Positions 46,120 to 63,978 of a DNA stretch of 64,000 nt are shown in pieces. The translations under genes were made by a program, and so were the position numbers. Within the stretch, counting starts at the first letter, position 1, and each line of letters begins with the position of its first letter. The DNA is from an uncultured bacterium (GTDB lineage Bacteria > CSSED10-310), in contig CAZELM010000002.1 in assembly GCA_964512995.1 (NCBI GenBank), positions 18,637 to 82,636 of the forward strand, written 5' to 3'. Under the pieces are notes generated by a model, which was not told the origin of the DNA, made no database searches, and worked only from the letters and a program-made list of their open reading frames with translations.

Positions 46120-48006
46120 CTACTTGAACAGAAATCGAGAAATGAACTCCCGCTGCTGTGGCTCATTTACAAATTCAGTTATTACCTGCCAATCAATAGA
46201 TGTGGCATTAAAATCGATATTGCCGATATAATGCATGAACACCGTGAAATCTCCAAGATATGCCGCACGTACAGCGCCAATCACACTGGCAGACTCGACA
46301 AAGCCCCGTGGGAACTCACCCTCATCCCACTCATCGATTTTTCCCTCAAGCGTATTTTGCCAATCGCTGTTCCATGTTGTATTGGATGGAGCGAATACCA
46401 GCGCCCAAAATAAAACGACTACCGTCCAGAGGGAAAAAGAAGCGACAATTATATTTCTCCCCCATCGAAAACGCTCCCAGCATTTCAAGCATACCGATGA
46501 AATGAGCAAAATTGAAAAGATAATGAGTGCTCCCTGAAAGTAATCCCATGTATGCGCTTTGGAAACCAAAGTGAAGCGATGCGACAAAATTTTTGCGACT
46601 CCCTGGGAAAAGGCCTCGAAAGGAGTCTCCCAGCGACCTGCATGAGCGAAAAAAATCTGCTCTCCAGACTTGAACGGATCCGGCTTTCCAAAAAACAACA
46701 GGGATAAATCATAATTGTAATAACGATGTGCGCTTAATGTAACGATCGCCCAGACTGACGACAGAAATACAAACAGGACACGGTGTCGTGTTTTCATGTT
46801 CGTCAGGACACAAGCCAATCCCAAACCTGCCATGGGTGTCAAAGAGGACAGTCTGCGTGGACCATAAGAACTGCCACCCCACCAATCGAACGGGCATGCT
46901 GAAATGTAAATAGCAATTGGGATTGATGCGGTCAATCCGATCAGCAACCGTTTTTTCCCGACGGGCATCGGTTTCCATAGAGAAAAATAAATCCCTATCA
47001 ACCCGATGGCGAACACGGGTGCCCACGGCAAAAGCCCGTTGTAACTGCTGAACAGGAAGGATCGGATATGGGGTTGAGACCAGTGCATAAAATGCTTTTC
47101 ATGTGTTCGGAGGAACCATTCGCCATATTGGATGTAAAAAAAAGAATACTGAATTGTAATAACAGAAAAAAAACTCAAAACAACTGCAATAAAACTATAT
47201 GTTCTGGAACGATCCCATTTTTTTTCGAACAATAGATGAAAAAGGATGGGAACAGCCAAGCAGCCCCAAATGAGGTTATCCTGCCACCGACTGATTCCCA
47301 TCATACCGGCTGTCAATCCCAATTGTATCCCTTCCATGATCCTCGGGTGTTCCAGCCACCTCACACATGAGTGGATCATCAAAACACTCCAGAATGCACT
47401 GAGAAGGTGCGAATTCCCATACGATTGAAGTCCATAAAAAAATAAAGGACCCGAGATAATGCTCAGATAGGCGGAGAGGTATCCGATATCCTTAGAATAA
47501 CCTACCGTTTCAATCAAACGAGCTATCGCTTGAACTGTTATGATAAACGCAAGCATCGAGCCGATCATGATTGCGATATACAGATTATTGCGATATTCCA
47601 CCGGATCGGACAACAAAAGAACCGGCCATGTATACCACCCATGCGTCACTGCGAAACCAGCACCAAAGGCATTTTTCAAAGCTCCAGAAGGAAATGTAAT
47701 GGTCAATGCTCTGAATTTTTCGGAAAAAACCAAATTTGATGCAATGATGTTATTTTGGAGAAACAGATCTCCATCGCATATCGGAGATATTAATTGAGAC
47801 AAAAAAAACGTCTCATCCCATCCATAAAAAGAAGCCAGCCAAAAGAATTTCCACAAAAAGAGGAATCCGATCACAGGCCATCGGATTGCTTTTATACCCT
47901 TTGCCAGCCACGGATAACACCCTGGCATTCTGAAAATATTCATGATGGATCTTGTTTCCTTCCGGCATCCAGAATATCTCTGAATGCACTTCCCATCATC
48001 GGACAT
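46120..48006 (-). CDS. Large polytopic membrane protein (628 aa), possible GT-C-type glycosyltransferase or YfhO-like.
   Basis: More than 12 hydrophobic segments, with large loops containing Trp/Asp/Glu-rich regions. I see no soluble catalytic motif, so the function is inferred from topology only. Confidence 0.5.
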   Translation of the reverse strand: MSDDGKCIQRYSGCRKETRSIMNIFRMPGCYPWLAKGIKAIRWPVIGFLFLWKFFWLASFYGWDETFFLSQLISPICDGDLFLQNNIIASNLVFSEKFRALTITFPSGALKNAFGAGFAVTHGWYTWPVLLLSDPVEYRNNLYIAIMIGSMLAFIITVQAIARLIETVGYSKDIGYLSAYLSIISGPLFFYGLQSYGNSHLLSAFWSVLMIHSCVRWLEHPRIMEGIQLGLTAGMMGISRWQDNLIWGCLAVPILFHLLFEKKWDRSRTYSFIAVVLSFFSVITIQYSFFYIQYGEWFLRTHEKHFMHWSQPHIRSFLFSSYNGLLPWAPVFAIGLIGIYFSLWKPMPVGKKRLLIGLTASIPIAIYISACPFDWWGGSSYGPRRLSSLTPMAGLGLACVLTNMKTRHRVLFVFLSSVWAIVTLSAHRYYNYDLSLLFFGKPDPFKSGEQIFFAHAGRWETPFEAFSQGVAKILSHRFTLVSKAHTWDYFQGALIIFSILLISSVCLKCWERFRWGRNIIVASFSLWTVVVLFWALVFAPSNTTWNSDWQNTLEGKIDEWDEGEFPRGFVESASVIGAVRAAYLGDFTVFMHYIGNIDFNATSIDWQVITEFVNEPQQREFISRFLFK

Positions 48007-51795: not shown

Positions 51796-53067
51796 TTGGG
51801 TATCAAATCATTATCCTTCGAAAAAATAATACGTGGTGTATGTTGGATATTTATCGGGTTCGGTTACGTTTTCAGGAAAGATTACAGTACAAATATGTGC
51901 ACAGATAGCTCCAATCGTCAAACTGCTGAGATAAACAAAATGAAACCAGAACTGGAATACAAAGCGATCATTGACTCAATCAGCGATAAACTAATCGTGA
52001 TCAATCATACAATGGCCGTTGTCCTGGCCAATGCAGCCGTGAAAAAATGGCTTTTGGATCTCCATTTCCACACTGACATCGAAAACAAAACGATCTACGA
52101 GGCATTACCATTCCTCCCGATAACGATGCGGAATGATTTTGAAGCGATTTTTGAAAACGGGACTTCAATCGTTGGAGAGGATTCGGTTGTTATCAATAAA
52201 ACAAAGATTATTTTGGAAATACGAAAAGAACCGATCTTCAGAGAGAATCGAGTGCATCAAATACTAATTATTTTTCGAGATATTACAGATCGAAAAGCGG
52301 CCGAAGCCGAGCTTACAGAAGCCCACCGGAACTGCGCTTCCAAAGCAGCAGAGCTTCAATCTATCAACAATGATTTAAAACATTTCAATTATATCGTTTC
52401 TCACGATCTGAAAGCCCCGCTTCGTGCAATCAATACCTATGCTTACTTCCTTCGAAGAGATCTCAATCTGACAGAAGATACACCTGTTGTAAATTACCTG
52501 AAAGGATTAGAACATTCCATACACCATGCTAAATCACTGATCGACGATTTGCTGGAACTATCCCGGCTGGATCAAATCAGTTTTCATTTTCAGATGGTTG
52601 ACCTTGGCAATTTCATTCGCAGTCTTCTGCAGAGCTTCAAACTCTCTTCCGAAATCCAGATCATCATGCCTGACGAATGGCCAATGATACAGCTCGAACC
52701 GGTTCTGATGAGACAACTTTTCCAGAACCTTATTGAAAACGCCATTAAATTCAATGTACGAAATCCCAAAATCATCGAACTGAAGTGGTCCCAAATCGAT
52801 GATAATCATTTTGAAGTACAGGTGCATGACAACGGGATTGGAATTGAACAACGGTATTTGGATAAAATTTTCGGAGTTTTCGAGCGGATCAATACCAGCG
52901 AACAATATGAAGGGACAGGGATAGGGCTGGCGATTGTCAAAAAAGCAGTAGCCAAACTAGGTGGAACGATCCGAGTGGAATCCGAGGTCGGAGTAGGCAG
53001 CACTTTCTATGTGACCCTGAAAAAATCACTCTATCAGGTAATACGCAGCCAATCGAGTGAATCATAA
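51796..53067 (+). CDS. PAS-domain sensor histidine kinase.
   Basis: H-box HDLKAPLRAINTYAYFL, N-box LFQNLIENAIKF and G-box HDNGIGIE / GTGIGLAIVKK. The start may be the internal MKPELEYK. Confidence 0.8.
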   Translation: MGIKSLSFEKIIRGVCWIFIGFGYVFRKDYSTNMCTDSSNRQTAEINKMKPELEYKAIIDSISDKLIVINHTMAVVLANAAVKKWLLDLHFHTDIENKTIYEALPFLPITMRNDFEAIFENGTSIVGEDSVVINKTKIILEIRKEPIFRENRVHQILIIFRDITDRKAAEAELTEAHRNCASKAAELQSINNDLKHFNYIVSHDLKAPLRAINTYAYFLRRDLNLTEDTPVVNYLKGLEHSIHHAKSLIDDLLELSRLDQISFHFQMVDLGNFIRSLLQSFKLSSEIQIIMPDEWPMIQLEPVLMRQLFQNLIENAIKFNVRNPKIIELKWSQIDDNHFEVQVHDNGIGIEQRYLDKIFGVFERINTSEQYEGTGIGLAIVKKAVAKLGGTIRVESEVGVGSTFYVTLKKSLYQVIRSQSSES

Positions 53068-53072
53068 AACCT

Positions 53073-53456
53073 TCATGTGGTATATTTCAATCCAAGTGCC
53101 TGATTGATTGTGGAGATCAGAATATTGAAATCTACGGGTTTCTCCAGATAATAATGAACCCCCAGCGACTCAAGGTGTTTCAATCGCAGTGGAGTATTGT
53201 ACGCTGACATTACAATCACCGGGATATTCAGCGAATACTTTTTTAGATGATCGAGGACCCCATACCCATCTACCTTGGGCATACGCAAATCGAGCAAAAG
53301 CAGGTCGATCTTATCTTTTGACAATTTTTCAATAGCTTCATTGCCGTTCTGAGCTGTCAAAACCCGCATATTACTGTATTCACTATCCAAGCCCTCTTTC
53401 AAACTCCAGACAAAAGCACTTTCGTCATCAACGATTAAAATCGTGATTTTTTCCAT
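53073..53456 (-). CDS. Single-domain response regulator (CheY-like receiver).
   Basis: MEKITILIVDDE, DLLLLDLRMPKVDG and VIVMSAY. The start was moved to the internal Met at 53456; the track ORF extends to 53576. Confidence 0.75.
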   Translation of the reverse strand: MEKITILIVDDESAFVWSLKEGLDSEYSNMRVLTAQNGNEAIEKLSKDKIDLLLLDLRMPKVDGYGVLDHLKKYSLNIPVIVMSAYNTPLRLKHLESLGVHYYLEKPVDFNILISTINQALGLKYTT

Positions 53457-54579
53457 TACCAAACTCCTTCCCAATTTGCTGTTCATCGATGAAATAAGCC
53501 GTATTATTACCTGCATGTCCCTCCGGCATTGTAATGTAAACCGTGGTTCCTTGGCCATGTTCACTTTGTATCTCAATAGTGCTGTTCATTTTTGTCAGGA
53601 TATTGCGAGTGATCACTAATCCAAGCCCTGTACCTTTTTCTTTTGTCGTAAAAAATGGGTTAAACAGATTTTTAAGTTGGTCTCGTGGAATGCCACTTCC
53701 ATTATCTTTGATCTTAATGCAAATACGTCCTCCAAGACGATATAAACTCATTCGGATTTCCGGTGTTTCACAATCAACTAATGCATCTAGCGCATTTGTG
53801 AAAACATTCAAAATAGCTTGATGCAATGCTCGAGAATCGATATATCCATACCGTGCTTCAAATGAAAAATCCGTTTTGATTTTGATCCCTCGATTGAGCG
53901 CATCCAGTTCCGCAATAGTCATGAATGTACCAAAGAATGCCATCAAATCGATATTTTCAGGTTTTGGGTCATCGAACATATTAAAATTTCTCAAAAGTTT
54001 GAGCAATTCTTCCAGTCTGACTATTTCCTCCAGAGTACGTTCAACGTATGTTCTTATGTTTTCGAGCGGAATCTGATCCATGTGTTCCAGTTTGGCTTTC
54101 AGAACCGTCAGAATCGTCTTGATATTATTGACTGGATTACAGATCTCGTGACGCAATCCAGAAAAAATGTACCCGATATTATCCATTAAATTTACAGCTT
54201 CAGCGATCGACTCAAGTCTCGATTTTTCAGTGATATCCTGAAAAAAAAGCCACAATAATGCTCCTTCGGGATGAATGATCCGGTAGTGCAACAACCGTTT
54301 TTCACACTGAACAGTGTTATTTTGAAGCAAGATCGCATTTAATGTGAGTGGTTGGGGAAGAAACAGATCATAAAAAAATATAAAATCACCGCTTTTATTC
54401 AGATTTCGAAAAATATTCTGTGAATATTTATTTTGATGTTTCAGTTTCTGTTTATCATGATCGAGAATAATTAATCCAATGTTTAATGCATCCATGGCTT
54501 GTGAAATCACTTCAAATATCCTGCATTCCAGGTTATTTTCCGGGCAAAACAGATAAGACTGCAAACCGTTCAATCCCAT
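53428..54579 (-). CDS. Sensor histidine kinase.
   Basis: H-box LRHEICNPVNNI and the HATPase motifs DNGSGIPRD and GTGLGLVITRNIL. Confidence 0.75.
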   Translation of the reverse strand: MGLNGLQSYLFCPENNLECRIFEVISQAMDALNIGLIILDHDKQKLKHQNKYSQNIFRNLNKSGDFIFFYDLFLPQPLTLNAILLQNNTVQCEKRLLHYRIIHPEGALLWLFFQDITEKSRLESIAEAVNLMDNIGYIFSGLRHEICNPVNNIKTILTVLKAKLEHMDQIPLENIRTYVERTLEEIVRLEELLKLLRNFNMFDDPKPENIDLMAFFGTFMTIAELDALNRGIKIKTDFSFEARYGYIDSRALHQAILNVFTNALDALVDCETPEIRMSLYRLGGRICIKIKDNGSGIPRDQLKNLFNPFFTTKEKGTGLGLVITRNILTKMNSTIEIQSEHGQGTTVYITMPEGHAGNNTAYFIDEQQIGKEFGNGKNHDFNR

Positions 54580-54671
54580 ATCACACTCTGAAAATCTATC
54601 AATGAGTTGCAGGATTCAGATTTCCGTTATCCAGCTTCCAATGAAATTCATGAGAGAGCCGGAGTTTTCGA

Positions 54672-55643
54672 TTACTCAGCATCACCATTCGGATCCAAAT
54701 TCTGTAAGCAATCTGGGCAGATGCTATGACTGAATTCGGTATCAGAATGCATTCGAAGAAATTCTTCAATCTGTCTCCAATACCCTCCATCATCCCGGAC
54801 TTTCCTGCAAGACACGCAGATAGGCAGCAAGCCACTGAAAGCTCTCACTTTATCGAGGGCTTCTTTTAAATTGAAAATCAAGGTTTCTCTTTCTTGATCC
54901 ATTGCTTTTTGTTCTGTGATATCCCGAGCAACTGAAGCCAAGGCGATTCGATTCCCTTTATCGTCTCGGATGATAGAACACGACAAGGACACGGGAAAGC
55001 GGGATCCATCCTTTCGATTATGCAGAACTTCACCTCGCCACTCCACATCAGCAGACGTCGACAGCAACCGAACAATATTATCATTCTCGTCCCGATGAAC
55101 CCAAATGACTTGACTTGTTTCCCCCAAGATTTCCGACTCAGGATATTTGTACGTGCTGCAAAACATCCGATTCACAAAGATAATTTTCCCGTTCAAATCG
55201 GTGATGAAAATACTGTCATTCACATTCATAATGGCATGCATTAAAAGACGGCTTAACTTTTCGGATTCTTTGAACATGATCGCATTATTAACGGTCAAAG
55301 GTAATACCTTGAGGTAATTTCTATCCATGTCTTTGACTATATAATCATATGCGCCATTCTTCATGGCCTTGATTGCAATTTCTTCATCTCCAGCGCCGGT
55401 AATGACAATAATGGGAATGTTCTTGATTCTATGGATGATATCAAAAGCGTTGCCATCTCCCAATAAATAATCGACCAGAACGATATCGAAAACCTGGGAG
55501 TTCAGAACTTGTTCTGTCGATGCAACTGAATCCACAATCGTGCATTGATAGGGAAGCCCGGATTCCTGAACAAATTGTTGAAATATCATCTGGTCGATGA
55601 GATTATCTTCAACCATTAGTATTCTGGTTGGTTTCCGTGTCAT
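54672..55643 (-). CDS. Response regulator: receiver domain, PAS domain and a C-terminal Cys-rich (CxxC...CxxC) module.
   Basis: ILMVEDNLIDQ / VLVDYLLGDGNAFD form the receiver. A PAS-like middle domain follows. The C-terminal LPICVSCRKVRDDGGYWRQIEEF...ICPDCLQ looks like a conserved zinc-ribbon motif. Confidence 0.75.
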   Translation of the reverse strand: MTRKPTRILMVEDNLIDQMIFQQFVQESGLPYQCTIVDSVASTEQVLNSQVFDIVLVDYLLGDGNAFDIIHRIKNIPIIVITGAGDEEIAIKAMKNGAYDYIVKDMDRNYLKVLPLTVNNAIMFKESEKLSRLLMHAIMNVNDSIFITDLNGKIIFVNRMFCSTYKYPESEILGETSQVIWVHRDENDNIVRLLSTSADVEWRGEVLHNRKDGSRFPVSLSCSIIRDDKGNRIALASVARDITEQKAMDQERETLIFNLKEALDKVRAFSGLLPICVSCRKVRDDGGYWRQIEEFLRMHSDTEFSHSICPDCLQNLDPNGDAE

Positions 55644-55731
55644 GTGGGAATGGTTTTCCTTCTAACTCAATTGAATGAATACAAATGTTAAAATGAACTG
55701 ACCTTTATAATTGCGTCAGAATCCCGTTACA

Positions 55732-56154
55732 TTAATTCATTGGAGGCAACTCCGCTGCACTCCAGTAATTTAACAGATGCTTCATGTTATCTAAGAAGAC
55801 TGAATAATCAAACTGTTTGAGCAGGTATCCGGAGACTCCCAGCCGATAACACTCCAAAATATCCGTAACCTCCCCGGATGTTGTGAGAACAATCACCGGG
55901 ATCAATCTCAACTTGTCATGTTGCTTGACTTCCCTTAACAGTTCCATCCCGCTCAATCTGGGAGTATTTAAATCCAATAAAATAATGGATGGTCGTTTGT
56001 TTTTTATGTTGAGGAGGTAATCCAGAGCTTTCTCACCATCTGAGGCGACCTTCAATTCAATCATACAGTTCAAATCTTTCAACGCCTGTTCAAGATTCAT
56101 GACGTCTGAAACATCATCTTCGACAAGTAGAATTGTTGAAAGGGCTTTCACCAT
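55732..56154 (-). CDS. Single-domain response regulator (CheY-like receiver).
   Basis: ILLVEDDVSDV, IILLDLNTPRLSGMELL and VIVLTTSGE. Confidence 0.8.
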   Translation of the reverse strand: MVKALSTILLVEDDVSDVMNLEQALKDLNCMIELKVASDGEKALDYLLNIKNKRPSIILLDLNTPRLSGMELLREVKQHDKLRLIPVIVLTTSGEVTDILECYRLGVSGYLLKQFDYSVFLDNMKHLLNYWSAAELPPMN

Positions 56155-56178: not shown

Positions 56179-57357
56179 ATGATGCCGAATCCATGGAAAA
56201 CACCTGTCGTGTATTCTATTCTATTTTTCCATAAACGCAAGTTTGAACGATCAGACGGCTGTCCAATTTTCGACCCGATGTTCACCTCCCAAATGCATAT
56301 GAACCAGCGCTTCCTCCAGATCGATGAATGGCAGAGAGCACGGTCAGACTATGACAAAACTGCTTCCCCTAAAAAAATAAACTTGAAGCAACGGATCGAA
56401 TCGATTAGGTTTTATCAGGGTTTAAGCCCCCAGAGGTATGACAATATTCCGTTTCAATATCGGCATCCTGCTGTCGATAAAGGAGGGACGCCATTGCCAC
56501 GATGTTTTTTTGTCAGTGATTTGCATGGGAATTACGATAGATATCAGAAGCTGTTAGATTGCATCCTCAGAGAGCAGCCAGAGATCGTGTTTATCGGCGG
56601 CGATCTTCTCCCATCGGGTCTACGATCCGTTTCCGATCTTCAAACTGGTCATCCGGATTTCATCCGTGATTACCTGTCTCTTGCTCTCGATTCACTTCGG
56701 ACAACTATGGGAGATCAATATCCTGAAATTTTTGTGATCATGGGGAACGATGATTGCCGGGGAGAAGAGCCGGCGATTACTGAAATGTCGAGTCAGGGAC
56801 TATGGAAATATTGCCATCAACAGCGATATGAATGCGGACGATTCCACATCTACGGCTATTCCTATATTCCACCGACACCCTTTCGGCTAAAAGATTGGGA
56901 GCGTTATGATGTCAGTCAGTATGTGGATCCTGGCTGCTCTGCTCCAAATACCGGAATCCGCACATTTCCCGTTCCCGAAGACGAAATTCAATATTCAACG
57001 ATCAAAGACGATTTGAAAAAGCTGGCGGGAAAAGATGATGTATCCCAAGGCATCTTTCTGTTCCATGCACCACCTTATCGATCAAATCTGGATCGGGCTG
57101 CATTGGATGATAAATGGATCAATATGGTTCCCCTCGATGTTCACATCGGGAGCATTGCCATCGCGAATTTCATCTCATTGAGCCAACCTCTTGTCACGCT
57201 CCATGGTCATGTCCACGAATCCACACGATTGACTGGTTTCTGGCACCAAAAATTCGGGCGTACCCATTCATTCAATGCAGCACATGATGGACCGGAGTTG
57301 GTCTTGATCCGGTTTGATCCGGAAAACCTGGACGAAGCCACCCATCACCTGATCTGA
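56179..57357 (+). CDS. Metallophosphoesterase (calcineurin-like phosphoesterase).
   Basis: CFFVSDLHGNYDRY, FIGGDLL, IMGNDD and LHGHVHE are the MPE metal-ligand motifs. The true start is probably the internal MFTSQ/MHMNQ at about 56278-56293, because only 24 nt separate 56179 from the divergent receiver gene. Confidence 0.7.
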   Translation: MMPNPWKTPVVYSILFFHKRKFERSDGCPIFDPMFTSQMHMNQRFLQIDEWQRARSDYDKTASPKKINLKQRIESIRFYQGLSPQRYDNIPFQYRHPAVDKGGTPLPRCFFVSDLHGNYDRYQKLLDCILREQPEIVFIGGDLLPSGLRSVSDLQTGHPDFIRDYLSLALDSLRTTMGDQYPEIFVIMGNDDCRGEEPAITEMSSQGLWKYCHQQRYECGRFHIYGYSYIPPTPFRLKDWERYDVSQYVDPGCSAPNTGIRTFPVPEDEIQYSTIKDDLKKLAGKDDVSQGIFLFHAPPYRSNLDRAALDDKWINMVPLDVHIGSIAIANFISLSQPLVTLHGHVHESTRLTGFWHQKFGRTHSFNAAHDGPELVLIRFDPENLDEATHHLI

Positions 57358-57394: not shown

Positions 57395-60300
57395 CTACCA
57401 ATTCCCGCCCGTGTCAGAAAAATCAATCGACCTTTTCTTGAGGGACAATGGTTTCGCCGGATCCGTTATCGCTCCGATTTTAACCGCATAACTGCTCTTC
57501 CGCTCGATATCCGCATCGGTCAGTACCTGAACATCCAGCAGACCATTACTTGCATATCCCGTTCTCAGATAATTCAGCTCTCCAAGGCACAAACTCCAGC
57601 CTTCCAGCCAACTCATCAGTTCTGTTTTCTGTTGCGCTGTTCCTGTGAAATGGATCAGCAGATCAATATCGCTCCCCGCCTGCGCAGTTCCATTTTTCGT
57701 GCTACCGAAGACATATAAAGCCTTGACACCGAATCGATCCGGATCGAGTTCTGAAGCGATTTTTTCCGCCATTCGCATCCGCCATTGCCAATGATCATCG
57801 GACACCTGTTCTGAACTTTCCGACATCAGGGAAGTCGATGGAACAGGAGAAGCAATGGTTTTAACGGAACTGGGCAGCGATAAAAAGCCGACGGCTTCCT
57901 CCAGATCCGCATTCATCAGAATTCTCAGAATTCTTCCGTCATAGGATTTCGGGACATCAATGACCCGGACAGTATCCGCCAGATGCTGATAACTCGGTAA
58001 AATATCAGGAAGAATATTATAGGAGTTCAGTAAGAACCGTTCATTGAATATCACTTCCGGATCATCCGGGTAAAGCGGCAAGTATCGAATATTGGATTCG
58101 ACCAGATCTTGAAAAAAGTGAGTCCCGAAAGACAGCTCAGGAGTATAATTTCCTTTTTTCTTGGCAATTTCGATCAACATCGCCGTTTTATTGAAATCAG
58201 AATAAGTGACCTTGACACCCAGTTTGATATCTCCCCGGCTACCCCATCGACCTGGACCCATCAGGATGAACTGCCGTTTGGGGAGGAGTTTATTGAGTTG
58301 GGCAACGATCCAACCGATAGCATTGAGATCCTCCAGACTGCTGACCTGTGAGTATCTATCCGGATCGACATAAACGATATGCGTGATATCAGGGACTCTG
58401 CCATTGGAAATATACCGTTTGGCGGTGAAGATAATTCTATTTTTAGGAATATCCTGGGGTATTGGGGATGCGCTGTTATCCGATGAATAGCTCTGAGGTC
58501 TGCATTGCAGCAGATAAAAATCCTTGCCATCGGACGCGAATTCGATATCCACTGGGCAATTCAGATTATCTTTAAGAACTTGTAGCACCGAATGAAGTTG
58601 TGAAACGAATTTTGTATCTTTGATCAAACCTTCGAATGTGACAACGAGCGTATCCGTATCATAATCGATGAGCGCTCCAGGCCGCTTGATCTGCCCATCT
58701 TTATATATGGATACCAACCGTTTCAAACCCGGGAATTCCGCTCCGCTCTCACGCAGCAGATCGGTAATCTCCACTGTTTCAAAGCTATTGGTTTCCATAT
58801 TGATCACATCGATTTTATGAGGAGAATAACGAAGCATTTCATCGGGAGATATATTGACCTTCAGATTGGGCTGGCCGGGAGCGATCAGGATCGGGTAATC
58901 ATCACTGAGCCGATCAACCGCACGAGTTCCCAATCCGGGCACAAGCCGGATCAATCCATCTTCTCTTTTGATGCGTGGAGACCATCTGAACTCATTATTA
59001 CTGAACGCGACACCGGCAAAACTGGGCAGGAAGTAGCGTCCCATCTTTGTACCGACGACCTCCTGAAGCAAAATGCCCATCTCTTCGTTGAAATCCAGTA
59101 ATCCACGCTCGGTGCGGTATTGAATCGGATCCGGGCTGAAAGTTGATGCATAAACTTCAGCGATTGCATCCATCAATGCTTCCAGACGCCGTTTCTTGTT
59201 CCCCTGATTGGCAATAAAAAGACTCTTATATTTTCCGGAAAAAGCGGTACCTAGGCTATCCTCTAACAGACTGGAACTCCGGACAATCAACGGTCGATCA
59301 CCAAAATCATCCAGTGCTAAAGCCAGACCTTTTACAATCTCCGGCGGGAAATATGAATTCTTGAACATCTGGATGATCTGGGGATATTCCATCCGGATCT
59401 GATCGATTTCCTTATATTTCTGTTCCACAACATCTTCAAGGTTGTTGTAATGCAAAAAATTAACCAGACTGTCGGATGTGACAAACCAGGTTTTTGGGAT
59501 TTTCACATTGTCCAGGATATCTTTAACTTCTTCCGATTTTCGCAGAATTTTAGAAGCAAGAAATAATCCGGCACTTTTTCCACCGAGCCGGCCGCGGCCT
59601 CCTGTGGGATGAATAATATTCTGCATGAGATCATAAAAATCCGATACTTCAATGAACTGCTTCGCAATATTAATGAATTCCAGTCTCGCGAAGAAGAATC
59701 GACGAATCAGAGAAACCTTCAGACCCTTTTCAGCGGGTGGAGAAATCTCTGCTGCCAGGTTCCGATACCGTGTCAATGCATCCACGATCTCAGCCAGAGT
59801 GCTGCTGTTGTTTTCGATCGTTTTGAGCAAAAAGCTGGCTTTATCTTCCTGTATCCATTTATGAATGAGTTCGAGAATTTCCTTGTCTTCCAGATAATTC
59901 TCTGCCAGCTTGAAAATTTCATCACTCATGTGCAGGATACTGTCCATTGTTTTTCGCTGACTCGGGACATTGGACTCCTCATGCAAATCCAATTCAGATG
60001 CTTTCGCTTGCCCTCCTAGTTTTTTAAGGAGGATGGATGCTTCTTCGTTCCCGCTCCAACAAAGATGATTCATCATCTTGCGTGCAATTTGGATAAACAA
60101 ATTCTGGTCGGTTGTCCGGAGCAGATCAAGGATGACCGGCCAATCTCCGCTTGCTCTTTTTGATGCTTTTTGGGAGGAACTGGATTCGATATCCTGAATC
60201 ACTTCCCGATGTTTGATATAAAAAATCGTATTCCCCAGCCGCTGTCCGATGTTGGCCAGCAGTTTCTGTTCTTCTTCCAGGAACACATCGACGCTATCGA

Positions 60301-60619
60301 TGGGCGGCCGTTGCATATAATAAACACATAATGAACCAAGGATACGTTCCTGAACATTGATATTCGAACACAAGCGCCAGGGGGTTTCGATCACATTGGC
60401 GGTTTGAAAAATCTTGTCTTCATAGACAATGCGAGCGCCACAGATCTCGGGAAACTGAAATCCCAATGGAATGGCTTGCACGACCAACTCAAATTTTTTG
60501 TTAAAATCATAAAACTTGTTGTTTAATATATCTTCGATCTTATAAAGACAATTCAATTCTTTTGTGCGTTCCTGTAGATCTCTATAAATTCTCTGTACCG
60601 ATTGATCTGACATGTTCAT
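57395..60619 (-). CDS. Large multidomain protein: N-terminal sensor-like region, PPDK_N-type ATP-grasp (PEP/pyruvate-binding) domain and a C-terminal minimal nucleotidyltransferase (Pol-beta-like).
   Basis: PPDK_N motifs LGGKSAGL, LIVRSSSLLEDSLGTAFSGKY, ILLQEVVG and LLQCRP. The C-terminus has GVKALYVFGSTKNGTAQAGSDIDLLIHF (GS...SDIDL NTase motif). I see no phosphohistidine swivel motif (TSHAAI). Confidence 0.7.
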   Translation of the reverse strand: MNMSDQSVQRIYRDLQERTKELNCLYKIEDILNNKFYDFNKKFELVVQAIPLGFQFPEICGARIVYEDKIFQTANVIETPWRLCSNINVQERILGSLCVYYMQRPPIDSVDVFLEEEQKLLANIGQRLGNTIFYIKHREVIQDIESSSSQKASKRASGDWPVILDLLRTTDQNLFIQIARKMMNHLCWSGNEEASILLKKLGGQAKASELDLHEESNVPSQRKTMDSILHMSDEIFKLAENYLEDKEILELIHKWIQEDKASFLLKTIENNSSTLAEIVDALTRYRNLAAEISPPAEKGLKVSLIRRFFFARLEFINIAKQFIEVSDFYDLMQNIIHPTGGRGRLGGKSAGLFLASKILRKSEEVKDILDNVKIPKTWFVTSDSLVNFLHYNNLEDVVEQKYKEIDQIRMEYPQIIQMFKNSYFPPEIVKGLALALDDFGDRPLIVRSSSLLEDSLGTAFSGKYKSLFIANQGNKKRRLEALMDAIAEVYASTFSPDPIQYRTERGLLDFNEEMGILLQEVVGTKMGRYFLPSFAGVAFSNNEFRWSPRIKREDGLIRLVPGLGTRAVDRLSDDYPILIAPGQPNLKVNISPDEMLRYSPHKIDVINMETNSFETVEITDLLRESGAEFPGLKRLVSIYKDGQIKRPGALIDYDTDTLVVTFEGLIKDTKFVSQLHSVLQVLKDNLNCPVDIEFASDGKDFYLLQCRPQSYSSDNSASPIPQDIPKNRIIFTAKRYISNGRVPDITHIVYVDPDRYSQVSSLEDLNAIGWIVAQLNKLLPKRQFILMGPGRWGSRGDIKLGVKVTYSDFNKTAMLIEIAKKKGNYTPELSFGTHFFQDLVESNIRYLPLYPDDPEVIFNERFLLNSYNILPDILPSYQHLADTVRVIDVPKSYDGRILRILMNADLEEAVGFLSLPSSVKTIASPVPSTSLMSESSEQVSDDHWQWRMRMAEKIASELDPDRFGVKALYVFGSTKNGTAQAGSDIDLLIHFTGTAQQKTELMSWLEGWSLCLGELNYLRTGYASNGLLDVQVLTDADIERKSSYAVKIGAITDPAKPLSLKKRSIDFSDTGGNW

Positions 60620-62358
60620 ATCGTAATGATTCCCTTTCCTGTTCTTCCGTCGACTTTAACGGTTAGTTTTCCGGGAGTTTTGATGTGCCGCACAAACTCT
60701 CCCTCATTGATTGCGTCCTGATGGTTCAGCCAATCCCAGTTGATTCGATAAGGTCCATAATGGTTGACAGAGAAGTAGTTCACCTGAAAACTGGAGAGGT
60801 TATGGAAAAAATGAGAGCCTTGGCTTAATTCGGTCCGCATATTCGGCAGAGTAGCTTCTACGATCACTTTTGCCCCGCAGATCTGGCTCCAGTTGACAGG
60901 TATCCCCAACCAAGGATCAGAACTCCCCCATCGACCAAATCCGATTAACAAAAAAGGGGTTTTGGATTGGAGCAATGATGTGTTGCGTTTTTCGATTTCC
61001 TGAGCGATCTGCCGGGTGTATTTCGCATCAAAAACTCCCGGTTTCACATAAACGATATCTTCAATGGAGCGAACGCTGCCATTTCCCATCACTCGATCCG
61101 AAGCAATAATGACGCTCTCAGACGCCAATTCTCCATCCTCAATTTCTACTTGCTCATGAGAAACGACCATCGGACGGACCTGCAGTAATCCAAACCGTGC
61201 GGTGACCGGTGATGAAGAATTAATGGTCAATGCAAACTCGATCTCAACTTCAGCCTTTGCCAGATTTTCACAGAGCGGCAGGACTTCTTTTATCAATCGA
61301 TTCAGTGGTAAGAGTTCCAGATCCAAAATCGGAGCAAAATTGATGATTCGCGGTCCGTTTCCATCCAGACCCACATTGATCCGATCCGATTGAATATCAA
61401 ATGTCGAAGCGATGAATCGGAGCGTATCATCGGATTCTGCATCCCTCAGATCCGCACTGATCAGGTATTCGGTTTCTTTCATGGGATCATACGTCAAAGA
61501 CTTACCCATATTGACTGCCCAGAACTGGTTCTGCGATTGTTTTAACAGATCACGAGCCGCTCCGACGGGTGGTTTTGCACGAGGATATGCAGGAGAATAT
61601 GTCCAGACCATTCCCCCATCCACAATGGCTTTCCCCAATCCCAATGCCAGATCCACGACACCATGTTCCGGCTTGGCTTTGCCAATCGGATAATAATTAT
61701 AACTTCGCGCCACACCCGAAATAGTTGGATAGAAGCGGTCTCCATGCCGCAAACCCACAACCTCCTGAATGATTACGGCCATTTTTTCATCTTCTATCCG
61801 ATGATTTGTTGCCTTGAAATAATCTTTTGCCTCTTTGAAAAATGTTGAAGCATAAACAAATTTAATGGCTTCAACGAGTCTTCGAAAACGCGATTCCGGT
61901 TCCTGCTGATTATTGGGAATCATTTTTGTTCCATAGATGCCCGCAAACGGTTCGAATTTCGCGTCTTCCAGTAAACTGGATGACCGTATGGCCAGCGGTG
62001 TTTTGACATTTCGAATCAATGCCCATATATCACCAACCAAAATGGCCGGGAGATCTGCTTTTTGGAAGTGATGCGCAATGATCTCGTCCGATGAATCTGA
62101 GTAGGCCAGTTCATAAAGATTGTTTTGTTTCAGAAACAAATCAAAAAACGACGTCGATATCACCGTCAGACGTGGAATGTTCACCTCGATCTGATGAAAT
62201 GGACTCCCTTTGTATTTTTGATCCAATGCTTTTTTTATTTGGGCCAGTCCGTGAGCTTTTCCTCCGATACCACCATCGCCGATAACCGTAAAATCTTCCA
62301 GAGAATCGAAAAATTTTCTATCATATTCATGCCATTTATGGCTATTGCCGTCTTCCAT
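60616..62358 (-). CDS. PPDK_N-type ATP-grasp (PEP-utilizer N-terminal) domain protein; paralog of the N-terminal/core part of 57395..60619.
   Basis: GGIGGKAHGLAQI, AIRSSSLLEDAKFEPFAGIYGT, AVIIQEVVG and LLQVRPM. There is no His-swivel domain. It overlaps the downstream paralog in ATGA fashion. Confidence 0.7.
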   Translation of the reverse strand: MEDGNSHKWHEYDRKFFDSLEDFTVIGDGGIGGKAHGLAQIKKALDQKYKGSPFHQIEVNIPRLTVISTSFFDLFLKQNNLYELAYSDSSDEIIAHHFQKADLPAILVGDIWALIRNVKTPLAIRSSSLLEDAKFEPFAGIYGTKMIPNNQQEPESRFRRLVEAIKFVYASTFFKEAKDYFKATNHRIEDEKMAVIIQEVVGLRHGDRFYPTISGVARSYNYYPIGKAKPEHGVVDLALGLGKAIVDGGMVWTYSPAYPRAKPPVGAARDLLKQSQNQFWAVNMGKSLTYDPMKETEYLISADLRDAESDDTLRFIASTFDIQSDRINVGLDGNGPRIINFAPILDLELLPLNRLIKEVLPLCENLAKAEVEIEFALTINSSSPVTARFGLLQVRPMVVSHEQVEIEDGELASESVIIASDRVMGNGSVRSIEDIVYVKPGVFDAKYTRQIAQEIEKRNTSLLQSKTPFLLIGFGRWGSSDPWLGIPVNWSQICGAKVIVEATLPNMRTELSQGSHFFHNLSSFQVNYFSVNHYGPYRINWDWLNHQDAINEGEFVRHIKTPGKLTVKVDGRTGKGIITI

Positions 62359-62592
62359 CCAATCACCCCCTCCACAAGTCTATTTTACATTTACACCCTT
62401 TCCGCAGGTCCGATGTCGGTATTTCCATCTAAACGCACGCAAAAAACCAATGGATAAAACCGGGAGATGGTATCCGGAATTGACCCCATCGCGTCACAAG
62501 ACAGATATACTCCTTCCCGACAAATACATCCGTTTCCCATGATAACTCCATCTTCATTATCTTATCAGAAAGATCCTGCAATCGCACCTCTC

Positions 62593-62627
62593 AAAAAAAA
62601 GCTCCAGTTTGGAACCGGAGCTTTTTA
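62593..62627 (-). terminator. Rho-independent terminator downstream of gdh (A-tract / hairpin / T-tract; potentially bidirectional).
   Basis: aaaaaaaa gctcc agtttggaacc ggagc ttttt read directly. In minus-strand RNA this gives a GC-stem hairpin followed by U8. Confidence 0.55.
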
Positions 62628-62691
62628 TCTTCATTAAAACAAAAATCAAGATGAACAAAATTGACAGAATTTTAAAAGTGTAACTGTGGGA

Positions 62692-63978
62692 CTATACCCA
62701 TCCTCGGTCTCTGCAGGCCTGAGCTACCCGGTTAATTGCGATAACATACGCGGCATTTCTCATATAGATCTTACGCTTTTTGGCTAATTCACTGACTGCG
62801 ATAAAAGCGGAAGTCATTTTAACGTCTAATTTTCCAAGGACTTCATCTTTTTCCCAATAATAGTTCATATTGCTCTGGACTTGCTCAAAATAACTGCAAG
62901 TCACGCCGCCTGCATTGGCAAGGAAATCAGGGATCAAAAATATTCCGCGCTGCTTGATAACTTCGTCCGCTTCTAAGGTCGTTGGGCCATTCGCGCCTTC
63001 CGCTATCACTTTTACACGCTTGCTGATTTTGTTTACGCTCGTTGCTGTTACCTGATTTTCCAGAGCTGCTGGTATCAGGATATCGACTTCCTGCTCAATC
63101 CATGCACCACCCGGAAGAATTTCATAGCCCAAATCTTTGGCTTTGCTCTTGTTGATGCCACCAAATCGATCCGTAATTGTCATCAACTGATCAATATTGA
63201 TACCATCTTTTTTATAGAAGCTGTAGGATGTCTGATCTTCCTGATCCCAACAGGATACACACACTACGACTCCGCCCATCTGGTTATAGAGCCGAATCGC
63301 ATATTGTGAGACATTGCCGAATCCCTGGACACTGGCCAATGTATTTTCCGGCCGCAGATTCAGTTCCTTCAACGCTTCACGAACCGTATACATCACACCA
63401 TAACCGGTTGCTTCGGTTCGTCCCAATGATCCACCCATTCCGACTGGTTTTCCAGTAATAAATCCAGGGTATTTTGCACCGTGAATCACTTCATATTCAT
63501 CCAACATCCACAACATGTGCTGGGCATTTGTCATGACATCAGGAGCGGGGACATCGTTTAACGGGCCAACATTCTTCGCCAATTGACGTACCCATCCACG
63601 ACAAATCTGTTCCTGTTCGCGGTCGCTTAAATTATGAGGATCACACACAACGCCACCTTTGCCGCCACCCAATGGGATGTTGACCAGGGAGCATTTCCAG
63701 GTCATCCACATTGACAAAGCGCGAACCGTGTCAACCGTTTCCTGCGGATGGAAACGAATGCCGCCTTTGCTCGGCCCCAATGCATCATTGTGCTGAATTC
63801 TGAAACCTCTGAAGATTTTAACAGAACCGTCATCCATGCGAACCGGAATACTGAACTGATACTCCCGAATGGGCGTACGAAGCAGTTCACGGGTTGCTGG
63901 ATCCAGTTCGAGATATTCTGCGACAGTGTCAAACTGCGCCTGAGCAACCTGATATGGATTATACATTTTATCTGCCAT
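62692..63978 (-). CDS. gdhA: Glutamate dehydrogenase (Glu/Leu/Phe/Val dehydrogenase family).
   Basis: The active-site region ALGPSKGGIRFHP, the Gly-rich GGGKGGVVCDP and the NAD(P)-binding QGFGNVSQYA are present. Confidence 0.9.
   Translation of the reverse strand: MADKMYNPYQVAQAQFDTVAEYLELDPATRELLRTPIREYQFSIPVRMDDGSVKIFRGFRIQHNDALGPSKGGIRFHPQETVDTVRALSMWMTWKCSLVNIPLGGGKGGVVCDPHNLSDREQEQICRGWVRQLAKNVGPLNDVPAPDVMTNAQHMLWMLDEYEVIHGAKYPGFITGKPVGMGGSLGRTEATGYGVMYTVREALKELNLRPENTLASVQGFGNVSQYAIRLYNQMGGVVVCVSCWDQEDQTSYSFYKKDGINIDQLMTITDRFGGINKSKAKDLGYEILPGGAWIEQEVDILIPAALENQVTATSVNKISKRVKVIAEGANGPTTLEADEVIKQRGIFLIPDFLANAGGVTCSYFEQVQSNMNYYWEKDEVLGKLDVKMTSAFIAVSELAKKRKIYMRNAAYVIAINRVAQACRDRGWV

What the first reader, a model, noticed from the sequence alone, without database searches (positions are those of the whole stretch)
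57395..62358. Tandem PPDK_N (PEP-utilizer ATP-grasp) proteins, one fused to a C-terminal minimal nucleotidyltransferase
Both proteins carry the PEP synthase / pyruvate phosphate dikinase N-terminal nucleotide-binding domain but no phosphohistidine swivel domain. The 1074-aa member adds an N-terminal sensor-like region and a C-terminal Pol-beta-type NTase (GS...SDIDL). The genes are translationally coupled and sit beside a metallophosphoesterase and a two-component-system island. I do not recognise this kinase/NTase/phosphoesterase combination as a characterised pathway. It could be a small-molecule or protein nucleotidylation/phosphorylation system.
Basis: partly seen in the sequence, partly recalled or inferred. 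Interest (0 to 1): 0.6.

Follow-up and report, generated by a model that had tools for sequence, protein, structure and literature searches.

The report
Glutamate-dehydrogenase-linked sensor dikinase/nucleotidyltransferase gene module
Two paralogous ATP-using "dikinase-like" proteins, one carrying a ligand-sensor domain and a nucleotidyltransferase, form a gene module with glutamate dehydrogenase that is conserved in hundreds of mostly uncultivated bacterial species and has never been studied; it most likely controls, or works with, this central nitrogen-metabolism enzyme.

Summary
ORFs A (580 aa) and B (1074 aa) overlap by ATGA. Both have a PPDK_N ATP-grasp, and B ends in a Pol-beta NTase.

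Three things change the picture:
- **A likely His domain is present.** The unannotated ~170-190 aa after each ATP-grasp is predicted to fold like the PPDK/Enzyme I phospho-histidine swivel domain. It carries an invariant G-[ST]-H, so the "no His domain" claim is probably wrong.
- **B has a GAF sensor.** Its N-terminus is a GAF domain followed by a conserved helical domain.
This is the glutamate dehydrogenase (GDH) gene just upstream. GDH>A>B<metallophosphoesterase is conserved across more than 10 phyla, with GDH present in 74 of 80 genome loci. Two of those loci carry a different GDH subfamily in a different gene order. A~B fusions exist, and variants lacking the NTase or GAF still follow GDH.

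The two-component genes are incidental. These are not PEP synthases, because there is no PEP/pyruvate domain.

Best guess (about 0.4): a sensor-regulated, ATP-driven phospho-His/nucleotidyl system that covalently regulates GDH, with the phosphoesterase as eraser. The main rival is a small-molecule dikinase acting in glutamate/2-oxoglutarate metabolism. I found no literature on the family.

The parts
62692..63978 (-). Glutamate dehydrogenase (428 aa, hexameric ~50 kDa type), first gene of the conserved module
   Evidence: Pfam ELFV_dehydrog_N + ELFV_dehydrog. Best PDB match is P. furiosus GDH 1gtm, E 8e-125. A GDH lies in 74/80 related genome loci: 72 canonical, 69 of them upstream of A/B on the same strand and 3 on the opposite strand.
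62590..62625 (-). Intrinsic-terminator-like hairpin plus T8 just after the GDH stop, inside the 333-nt GDH-A spacer
   Evidence: AAAAAGCTCCGGTTCCAAACTGGAGCTTTTTTTT. Comparable hairpins lie between GDH and the next gene in 19/67 loci. Function inferred only.
60616..62358 (-). Protein A (580 aa): ATP-grasp + swivel-like His domain, paralogue of the core of B
   Evidence: ORF. 28% identical to B over ~530 aa. Orthologues are 57-67% identical. AlphaFold pLDDT 85.
61147..62268 (-). A: PPDK_N ATP-grasp domain (residues 31-404)
60619..61116 (-). A: swivel-like putative phospho-His domain (residues ~415-580) with GRWGS loop and LSQGSHFF motif; His516 codon at 60811-60813
57395..60619 (-). Protein B (1074 aa): GAF - helical domain - ATP-grasp - swivel-like His domain - NTase
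   Evidence: ORF. Orthologues are 53-65% identical over the full length in more than 10 phyla. AlphaFold pLDDT 73.
60170..60619 (-). B: N-terminal GAF sensor domain plus long signalling helix (residues 1-150)
59615..60142 (-). B: conserved all-helical domain (residues ~160-335; TDQNL and KWIQEDK motifs), candidate acceptor- or partner-binding domain
   Evidence: Secondary structure and invariant columns. It is retained in the minimal 765-790 aa GDH-linked variants. Role inferred.
58448..59590 (-). B: PPDK_N ATP-grasp domain (residues 344-724)
57875..58447 (-). B: swivel-like putative phospho-His domain (residues 725-915), GPGRWGSRGD and LSFGTHFFQDLVE motifs; His834 codon at 58118-58120
   Evidence: Homologous to the A domain. 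H834 invariant. The model is poorly confident here (pLDDT <50 for residues 822-844), so the fold assignment rests on the A model.
57440..57802 (-). B: C-terminal minimal Pol-beta-type nucleotidyltransferase (residues ~940-1060; G972-S973, D984-x-D986, D1029)
   Evidence: Pfam PF01909 35.2 bits (cut-off 21) and PF18765. Catalytic residues invariant. The domain is absent from ~910-937 aa orthologues that still follow GDH.
56179..57357 (+). Metallophosphoesterase, convergent with B (37-nt spacer). The conserved part starts near residue 99 (about 56473), so the real start is probably downstream of 56179
   Evidence: Invariant D-x-H, GD, GNDD, H, GH-x-H motifs. Orthologues are ~287 aa. Present right after B in 39/80 loci and associated with the presence of A. 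Only weak hits to known subfamilies.

Best explanation
The finding is part of a conserved four-gene module: GDH > A > B, then a convergent metallophosphoesterase.

**Anatomy of B (shown or predicted).** B is a sensor enzyme. A GAF domain and a signalling helix sit in front of a conserved helical domain. Behind that lie a PPDK/rifampin-phosphotransferase-type ATP-grasp, a divergent swivel domain with an invariant His834, and, in most lineages, a catalytically intact minimal nucleotidyltransferase. A is a paralogue made only of the ATP-grasp and the swivel domain (His516). It is sometimes fused to B, so the two very probably act as a heterodimer.

**Proposed mechanism (inferred).**
1. As in all known PPDK_N enzymes, the ATP-grasp splits ATP to AMP + Pi and leaves a phosphoryl group on the swivel His.
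2. The swivel delivers that group to an acceptor site formed by the helical domain of B.
3. The acceptor is glutamate dehydrogenase itself or a GDH-bound ligand, so the module switches GDH activity.
4. The switch responds to a metabolite sensed by the GAF domain. By analogy with PtsP and NifA, this could be 2-oxoglutarate or glutamine.
5. The NTase adds a second, nucleotidyl (AMP-type) mark.
6. The metallophosphoesterase removes the phospho- or nucleotidyl ester.

**Shown:** domains, conserved catalytic residues, gene linkage, fusions and architecture variants. **Inferred:** every substrate and the direction of regulation.
For: **Linkage to GDH**
- Of 80 related genome loci, 72 contain a canonical GDH (69 upstream of A/B on the same strand, 3 on the opposite strand). 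Two more (L016, L038) carry the other, NADP-GdhA-type subfamily in a different gene order. Five are truncated and one is a true exception.
- Five of five further metagenome loci with a full-length B also have GDH upstream.
- Unbiased clustering of all neighbouring ORFs finds only GDH, A/B and the phosphoesterase conserved.
- A~B fusion proteins (P0003, P0014, P0021) also follow GDH.
- NTase-less (P0253) and GAF-less/NTase-less (P0267) orthologues still follow GDH. P0267 shares a stop/start overlap with it.

**Signal-transduction character**
- B has a GAF fold.
- A receiver domain is fused to the A-like protein in L038.
- An intrinsic terminator after GDH fits lower expression of A/B.

**Catalytic competence**
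- ATP-grasp, His and NTase residues are invariant.
- The swivel fold is supported.

**Eraser candidate**
- The phosphoesterase co-varies with A (p=4.8e-5).

**Precedents**
- GAF-Enzyme I-Ntr senses glutamine (PMC4848567).
- Mammalian GDH is inactivated by AMPylation (PMC12375108).
- The dikinase swivel mechanism and split dikinases are documented (PMC12167813).
- GlnE/GlnD NTases regulate nitrogen enzymes (textbook knowledge).
Against: - No PPDK_N-type dikinase is known to phosphorylate a protein. All characterised ones act on small molecules or glucans.
- I found no conserved candidate modification site on GDH. The one distinctive feature, a 6-aa CWDQxDQTSY insertion, was not tested for specificity, and I did not look for it in the GdhA-type partners.
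- GAF and NTase are dispensable in some lineages.
- Sequence conservation is unusually high for a regulator (53-61% across phyla). Stop/start coupling to GDH in the minimal form suggests stoichiometric partnership, which fits a metabolic complex at least as well.
- The swivel assignment rests on a predicted structure only. HMM and HHalign comparisons are negative, and the B model is poor in that region.
- No physical interaction was tested.
Confidence: 0.4

Rival explanations
1. A/B is a small-molecule "X, water dikinase" of glutamate/2-oxoglutarate metabolism, in the manner of rifampin phosphotransferase, phenylphosphate synthase or HpeHI. ATP to AMP + Pi drives phosphorylation of a metabolite made or used by GDH, for example to pull an unfavourable step or to give high-affinity ammonium assimilation. 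The phosphoesterase removes the phosphate later in the pathway. GAF and NTase are regulatory add-ons.
For: - Every characterised PPDK_N enzyme is a small-molecule or polymer dikinase. The closest structures are RPH and HpeI (PMC12167813).
- The Hpe pathway pairs a dikinase with a later phosphatase (my recollection of earlier work on this pathway; I read only the abstract of PMC12167813, which does not say this).
- Conservation is high, and the minimal form is translationally coupled to GDH.
- The conserved helical domain could be an acceptor-binding domain.
- One swivel-less relative sits in a glutamate-synthase-like cluster, and an A-like paralogue lies next to Asn synthase and CN-hydrolase genes.
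Against: - No plausible phosphorylated intermediate is known between glutamate, 2-oxoglutarate, ammonium and NAD(P)H.
- Sensor-domain fusions (GAF, REC) and an NTase are unusual for pathway enzymes.
- A terminator separates GDH from A/B in the window and in 19/67 loci.
- The phosphoesterase is missing from about a third of the loci that were long enough to show it.
Confidence: 0.3
2. A/B does not modify GDH or a pathway metabolite. It acts as a nucleotide- or energy-charge-sensing allosteric partner, or as a maker/breaker of a nucleotide-derived signal (NTase plus phosphoesterase). GDH is regulated by binding rather than by covalent chemistry.
For: - Two nucleotide-binding modules and a phosphoesterase weakly related to YfcE/ApaH-type nucleotide phosphodiesterases.
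- GDHs elsewhere are allosterically controlled by nucleotides (textbook knowledge).
Against: - Strict invariance of the catalytic ATP-grasp residues and of the swivel His argues for phosphotransfer chemistry.
- NTase and phosphoesterase are optional.
Confidence: 0.12
3. The NTase-containing protein belongs to a conflict system (an MNT-type toxin-antitoxin or anti-phage module), and its position next to GDH is fortuitous.
For: The NTase gives weak hits to the MntA antitoxin (NCBIfam 25.7 bits against a cut-off of 60) and to the PADLOC candidates PDC-S09 and PDC-M05A. The phosphoesterase weakly hits PDC-S10.
Against: - No HEPN partner or other defence gene is present.
- The hits cover only the generic ~40-residue NTase core.
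- The module is syntenic with a housekeeping enzyme across phyla and has none of the patchy, island-like distribution of defence genes.
- The NTase is dispensable while the GDH link persists.
Confidence: 0.03
4. They are ordinary but divergent PEP synthases or pyruvate phosphate dikinases.
For: Source annotations read "pyruvate, water dikinase". PPDK_N is present and a swivel-like domain is predicted.
Against: - There is no PEP/pyruvate-binding TIM-barrel domain, and the proteins have no room for one.
- NCBIfam PEP-synthase scores are 58 bits against cut-offs of 598-883.
Confidence: 0.01

Closest known systems
Rifampin phosphotransferase (RPH) and the two-component dikinase HpeHI / phenylphosphate synthase
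   Different: - No rifampin-binding-type acceptor domain was detected, and the domain order differs.
- Two complete ATP-grasp+swivel units are paired.
- GAF sensor and NTase fusions are present.
- The genomic partner is GDH, not a catabolic or resistance pathway.
- The swivel is unrecognisable at sequence level.
Pyruvate phosphate dikinase / PEP synthase
   Same: Protein A is collinear with the N-terminal nucleotide-binding domain plus the central phospho-His domain (Foldseek, 550-690 aligned columns). The ATP-grasp catalytic K, R, E, Q and R are conserved.
   Different: The PEP/pyruvate TIM-barrel domain is missing. Scores lie far below the family cut-offs.
Enzyme I-Ntr (PtsP) of the nitrogen PTS
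   Different: The phosphoryl donor module is an ATP-grasp rather than a PEP-binding barrel. There are no NPr or EIIA-Ntr partners. It is not a homologue outside the GAF and swivel folds.
GlnE (glutamine synthetase adenylyltransferase) and GlnD (PII uridylyltransferase)
   Same: Pol-beta-superfamily NTases that reversibly nucleotidylylate a central nitrogen-assimilation protein in response to glutamine/2-oxoglutarate status (textbook knowledge). This is the functional model for the NTase plus eraser.
   Different: B has only a minimal ~120-aa NTase with no GlnE or GlnD signature domains. The proposed target is GDH, and removal would be by a separate metallophosphoesterase.
SelO-mediated AMPylation of mitochondrial GDH
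   Same: A precedent that GDH activity can be switched off by AMPylation (PMC12375108).
   Different: SelO has a pseudokinase fold, is unrelated to A/B, and is not encoded next to GDH.

Membership tests
PEP synthase / PPDK (pyruvate, water or phosphate dikinase) | N-terminal PPDK_N ATP-grasp nucleotide-binding domain | tested here: met
PEP synthase / PPDK (pyruvate, water or phosphate dikinase) | Central phospho-histidine swivel domain (PF00391) with catalytic His | tested here: inconclusive
PEP synthase / PPDK (pyruvate, water or phosphate dikinase) | C-terminal PEP/pyruvate-binding TIM barrel (PF02896) | tested here: not met
   No hit, and there are no residues left to hold it.
PEP synthase / PPDK (pyruvate, water or phosphate dikinase) | Reaches the NCBIfam equivalog cut-off | tested here: not met
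   58.5 bits against 739.75 (TIGR01418) and 883 (NF004881).
RPH / HpeHI-type small-molecule dikinases | RPH-type ATP-grasp | tested here: met
RPH / HpeHI-type small-molecule dikinases | Swivel His domain that shuttles phosphate; His essential | not testable with these tools
   Fold-level similarity and an invariant His only. Phospho-His formation needs biochemistry.
RPH / HpeHI-type small-molecule dikinases | Dedicated small-molecule acceptor-binding domain homologous to the rifampin-binding domain | tested here: inconclusive
Minimal nucleotidyltransferase (Pol-beta superfamily, NTP_transf_2) | G-S ... D-x-D plus a third acidic residue; Pfam score above cut-off | tested here: met
   PF01909 35.2 bits (cut-off 21) and PF18765 30.2 bits (cut-off 26.9). 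G972, S973, D984, D986 and D1029 are invariant in 72-73 true orthologues.
HEPN-MNT (MntA/HepT) toxin-antitoxin | Cognate HEPN toxin gene adjacent; reaches the MntA equivalog score | tested here: not met
   MntA 25.7 bits against a cut-off of 60. No HEPN or any other conserved neighbour.
GlnE / GlnD regulatory nucleotidyltransferases | GlnE or GlnD signature domains beside the NTase core | tested here: not met
   No such Pfam or NCBIfam hits. The resemblance is functional analogy only.
Enzyme I-Ntr (PtsP) | GAF + Enzyme I (His domain + PEP-binding domain) | tested here: not met
Calcineurin-like metallophosphoesterase (neighbour gene) | Metal-ligand motifs D-x-H / G-D / G-N-[HD] / H / G-H-x-H | tested here: met
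   All are invariant in 20 orthologues. Pfam Metallophos_2 scores only 13.8 bits (cut-off 27), and the best PDB relative is aq_1956 (2yvt) at E 1e-3. This is a divergent, unassigned subfamily.

The most novel reading that the evidence does not exclude
This would be a previously unrecognised covalent switch for glutamate dehydrogenase, comparable to GlnE acting on glutamine synthetase. A GAF-gated, ATP-grasp-driven phospho-histidine relay, using ATP where the PTS uses PEP, together with a nucleotidyltransferase, would write a phosphoryl and/or AMP mark on GDH. A dedicated metallophosphoesterase would erase it. If so, it would be the first protein-directed PPDK_N dikinase and a major, overlooked control point of carbon/nitrogen balance in many uncultivated anaerobic phyla.
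Probability: 0.3. Interest if true: 0.85.

Novelty: new variant of a known kind. Interest (0 to 1): 0.66.

Why it matters
GDH sits at the junction of carbon and nitrogen metabolism. Its control in most bacteria is thought to be transcriptional or allosteric. Here a large module is glued to GDH genes in at least 530 species-level genomes across more than 10 phyla. These include Calditrichota, Ignavibacteria, Zixibacteria, Acidobacteriota, Planctomycetota, Bacteroidota, Spirochaetota, Cloacimonadota, Gemmatimonadota and Myxococcota.

Every member is annotated only as "PEP/pyruvate-binding" or "nucleotidyltransferase domain" protein, and no paper was found.

Whichever reading is right (covalent regulator or ATP-coupled metabolic partner), it implies unknown biochemistry at the glutamate node of abundant sediment and soil anaerobes. 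It would also extend the chemistry known for the PPDK_N dikinase superfamily. The hypothesis can be tested directly with three or four recombinant proteins.

Tried and rejected
- **Sequence-level detection of a His domain.** Pfam at E<=10 on the isolated C-terminal regions, a profile hmmsearch against PDB (the only hit was a spurious FNIP-repeat match) and HHalign against E. coli PpsA (probability 0.2) were all negative. The swivel call therefore rests on predicted structure.
- **Defence-system reading.** PADLOC gave only generic NTase-core hits. Rejected.
- **Ordinary PEP synthase.** Rejected on domain content and NCBIfam scores.
- **Two-component genes as part of the system.** Rejected. Homologues are present in only 5-13 of 80 loci, with none conserved in position.
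- **Regulatory RNA in the GDH-A spacer.** Rfam found nothing. A conserved terminator is seen in only 19/67 loci.
- **Classifying the phosphoesterase.** Pfam, NCBIfam and a PDB profile search gave only weak, uninformative hits.
- **Identifying the organism.** The exact protein is not on record in the contig index, the cluster look-up gave no names, and there are no tRNA genes in the window.
- **Glutamate-synthase-linked, swivel-less relative.** A metagenome scan showed it in only one lineage, so it stays an anecdote.
- **Literature.** Searches found nothing on the family.
- **My automatic fusion detector** under-counted fusions. Fusions are documented from the protein database instead.


Full report

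Yes. ORF listing gives a 580-aa ORF ("A", 60616..62358, minus strand) and a 1074-aa ORF ("B", 57395..60619, minus strand). The stop of A and the start of B overlap in ATGA.

Pfam finds PPDK_N in both: A residues 31-404 at 2e-34, and B residues 344-724 at 3e-61. It also finds NTP_transf_2/Polbeta at B 952-1005, at 35.2 bits against a cut-off of 21. NCBIfam PEP-synthase, rifampin-phosphotransferase and PigC models hit only the ATP-grasp, at 20-58 bits against cut-offs of 500-1350. No PDB sequence relative exists.

The neighbouring plus-strand ORF (56179..57357) has the metallophosphoesterase metal-binding motifs. Genes 51796-56154 encode receiver, PAS and histidine-kinase proteins.

**2. The pair is a large, conserved family.**

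Full-length homologues of B (~1060 aa) are 53-65% identical. Homologues of A (~580 aa) are 57-67% identical. Sources include Ignavibacteria, Calditrichia, Zixibacteria, Aminicenantes/Acidobacteriota, Planctomycetota/Phycisphaerae, Bacteroidota and Deltaproteobacteria. A scan of one genome per GTDB species found at least 530 genomes with a B relative. The 80 best that I retrieved are all MAGs. An exhaustive HMMER search of 50%-identity representatives gives 1024 clusters at E<=1e-30.

A and B are paralogues, 28% identical over ~530 residues, and the similarity runs through the region after the ATP-grasp. Proteins of 1520-1655 aa are A~B fusions. P0003 residues 35-587 are 54% identical to A and the rest is B. 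This is Rosetta-stone evidence that A and B work together.

**3. The "missing" His domain is probably there.**

Both families share an unannotated ~170-190-aa domain after the ATP-grasp. It has invariant motifs G-x-G-R-W-G-S and L-S-x-G-[ST]-H-F-F.

The AlphaFold model of A is good (pLDDT 85, pTM 0.83). In it, His516 sits at the N-terminus of a helix that follows a strand and a glycine-containing loop. From my knowledge of these enzymes, that is the arrangement of the G-x-T-S-H phospho-histidine in PPDK, PEP synthase and Enzyme I.

Foldseek aligns A collinearly with whole PPDK chains over 550-690 columns. That is more than the ATP-grasp alone could account for.

At sequence level nothing is detectable. 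The B model is unreliable in just this segment. I therefore call this a probable, divergent swivel domain, not a proven one.

The ATP-grasp catalytic set (Lys, Arg, Glu, Gln, Arg) is conserved in both paralogues, as are the NTase G-S/D-x-D/D residues. The few deviant rows are probably wrong-strand ORFs picked up by my ORF caller.

**4. Other domains of B.**

**5.

tblastn of the window's proteins against the 80 loci showed the following:

| Status of the locus | Loci |
|---|---|
| Canonical GDH (57-88% identical over the aligned part) present | 72 (69 upstream on the same strand, median gap 119 nt; 3 on the opposite strand) |
| NADP-GdhA-type GDH downstream instead (L016, L038) | 2 |
| Truncated before the position | 5 |
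| True exception (L009) | 1 |

In L016 (Cloacimonadota) the order is A>B>phosphoesterase>GDH. In L038 the order is REC-fused A-like>B>GDH. In both, the GDH belongs to the other subfamily: 33-35% identical to the window's GDH, and 738-768 bits on the NADP-GdhA equivalog model against a cut-off of 536. The association therefore holds across GDH subfamilies and gene orders. This argues for function rather than inherited synteny.

Unbiased clustering of all ORFs in the loci finds no other conserved neighbour except the phosphoesterase.

Architecture counts:
- GDH>A>B<phosphoesterase: 32 loci
- GDH>A>B without the phosphoesterase: 10
- GDH>B alone: 11

A and the phosphoesterase co-vary (36, 13, 2 and 13 in the 2x2 table; Fisher p=4.8e-5).

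Other architectures keep the link:
- Fusion proteins P0014 and P0021 follow GDH.
- An NTase-less orthologue (P0253, 919 aa) follows GDH.
- A GAF-less, NTase-less orthologue (P0267, 767 aa) follows GDH with a stop/start overlap.
- Five further metagenome loci with a full-length B show the same arrangement.

So the invariant pair is GDH plus the core of B (helical domain + ATP-grasp + swivel-like domain). GAF, NTase, A and the phosphoesterase are common accessories. The window's two-component genes are not part of it.

**6. The GDH itself.**

It is an ordinary hexameric-type enzyme (1gtm, E 8e-125). It has a moderately conserved 6-residue insertion (CWDQxDQTSY) relative to the Pyrococcus enzyme. 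I did not test whether this insertion is specific to A/B-linked GDHs.

In the window a strong terminator-like hairpin follows the GDH stop. Similar hairpins occur in 19/67 loci. This would fit high GDH and lower A/B expression, but it is only suggestive.

**7. How it most likely works.**

By homology with every studied PPDK_N enzyme, the ATP-grasp should convert ATP to AMP + Pi while phosphorylating the swivel His. The swivel then carries the phosphoryl group to an acceptor site (PMC12167813 for RPH/HpeHI). B has a candidate for each station: the helical domain, the ATP-grasp and the swivel. A has only the last two, and probably docks on B, as the fusions suggest.

The GAF domain, the receiver-domain variant and the NTase give the family the look of a signalling enzyme. 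The tight, subfamily-independent link to GDH points to GDH or something bound to it as the object.

I therefore favour (0.4) a covalent regulatory system: phosphorylation via the His relay, nucleotidylylation via the NTase, and reversal by the phosphoesterase, gated by a nitrogen/carbon metabolite. Precedents for the logic:
- PtsP, whose GAF senses glutamine (PMC4848567; review PMC13104625).
- GlnE/GlnD (textbook knowledge).
- SelO-mediated AMPylation that inactivates mammalian GDH (PMC12375108).

The main rival (0.3) is a small-molecule dikinase that couples ATP hydrolysis to a step of glutamate/2-oxoglutarate metabolism. Three points favour it. All known family members act on small molecules or glucans. 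Sequence conservation is unusually high. The minimal form is translationally coupled to GDH. Against it, there is no known phosphorylated intermediate at this node, and the sensor fusions are atypical for pathway enzymes.

Lesser rivals are a non-covalent or nucleotide-signal role (0.12), a defence/TA module (0.03) and an ordinary PEP synthase (0.01, refuted).

**8. Comparison with the known, and novelty.**

It works like an RPH/PPDK-type dikinase front end. It is not a member of the PEP synthase/PPDK family, because the PEP/pyruvate domain was tested and is absent. It did not reach the RPH, PigC, MntA, GlnE/GlnD or PtsP family thresholds either (membership table).

Five literature searches found no description of the family or of a GDH-dikinase linkage. 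Source annotations are generic.

I rate it a new variant of a known kind: known catalytic folds in an undescribed architecture and an undescribed, very widespread association. The function is open, and the most novel reading is not excluded.

**9. Caveats.**

- All structural statements rest on AlphaFold models built from shallow alignments (25-38 sequences).
- The 80 loci are the best-scoring subset of at least 530, so adjacency frequencies may be lower in more distant members.
- The organism of the window is unidentified.
- No interaction or activity was, or could be, tested here.

Noticed in passing
window 1021-5271 (-): A 1416-aa ORF with a signal-peptide-like N-terminus, a C-terminal hydrophobic anchor and a ~560-residue (P-T-x-T)n mucin-like repeat. 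It has no Pfam domain. It explains the GC-rich, strongly skewed composition at 2-4 kb (GC 0.56, GC skew +0.22, AT skew -0.26).
   Followed up: partly
window 54672-55643 (-): A response regulator (REC-PAS) ends in a Cys/His-rich tail, LPICVSCRKVRDDGGYWRQIEEFLRMHSDTEFSHSICPDCL. It looks like a small metal-binding output motif, and Pfam did not annotate it.
   Followed up: no
window 62590-62625 (-) and the 333-nt spacer 62359-62691: A strong terminator-like hairpin plus T8 lies right after the GDH stop, with a promoter-like site (62568-62539) before A. Similar hairpins occur between GDH and the next gene in 19/67 related loci, mostly low-GC lineages.
   Followed up: partly
window 62692-63978 (-), GDH residues ~246-257: A/B-linked GDHs share a 6-residue insertion (CWDQ[KE]DQTSY) in the NAD(P)-binding domain relative to P. 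furiosus GDH. It contains Thr, Ser and Tyr. I did not test whether it is specific to linked GDHs or is a modification site.
   Followed up: partly
L038:6725-9739 (+): Variant locus in which the A-like protein is 1004 aa with an N-terminal response-regulator receiver domain. It is followed by B and by an NADP-GdhA-type GDH, with a sodium:solute symporter upstream.
   Followed up: partly
L088:1-8587 (same lineage in L089, L095): A 715-aa relative of B (GAF + helical + ATP-grasp, no swivel, no NTase) sits after a NuoF/GltD-like 1063-aa fusion, a ferredoxin-like protein and a Glu_synthase (PF01645) protein. Saccharopine dehydrogenase follows it. This was found in a single lineage only. The same NuoF/GltD-like gene also neighbours family members in L085 and L102.
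   Followed up: partly
L094:302-6621: A more distant A-like paralogue (589 aa) lies after asparagine-synthase-like, CN-hydrolase and sodium:solute symporter genes. This is another nitrogen-metabolism context, seen once.
   Followed up: no
window 40836-43046 (+) and 46120-48006 (-): Two large ORFs (736 and 628 aa) have no Pfam domain at E<=1e-5.
   Followed up: no
window 56179-56472 (+): The phosphoesterase ORF as listed (392 aa) is ~100 residues longer at the N-terminus than its ~287-aa orthologues. The true start is probably internal, which would leave a longer gap to the divergent receiver gene at 55732-56154.
   Followed up: partly
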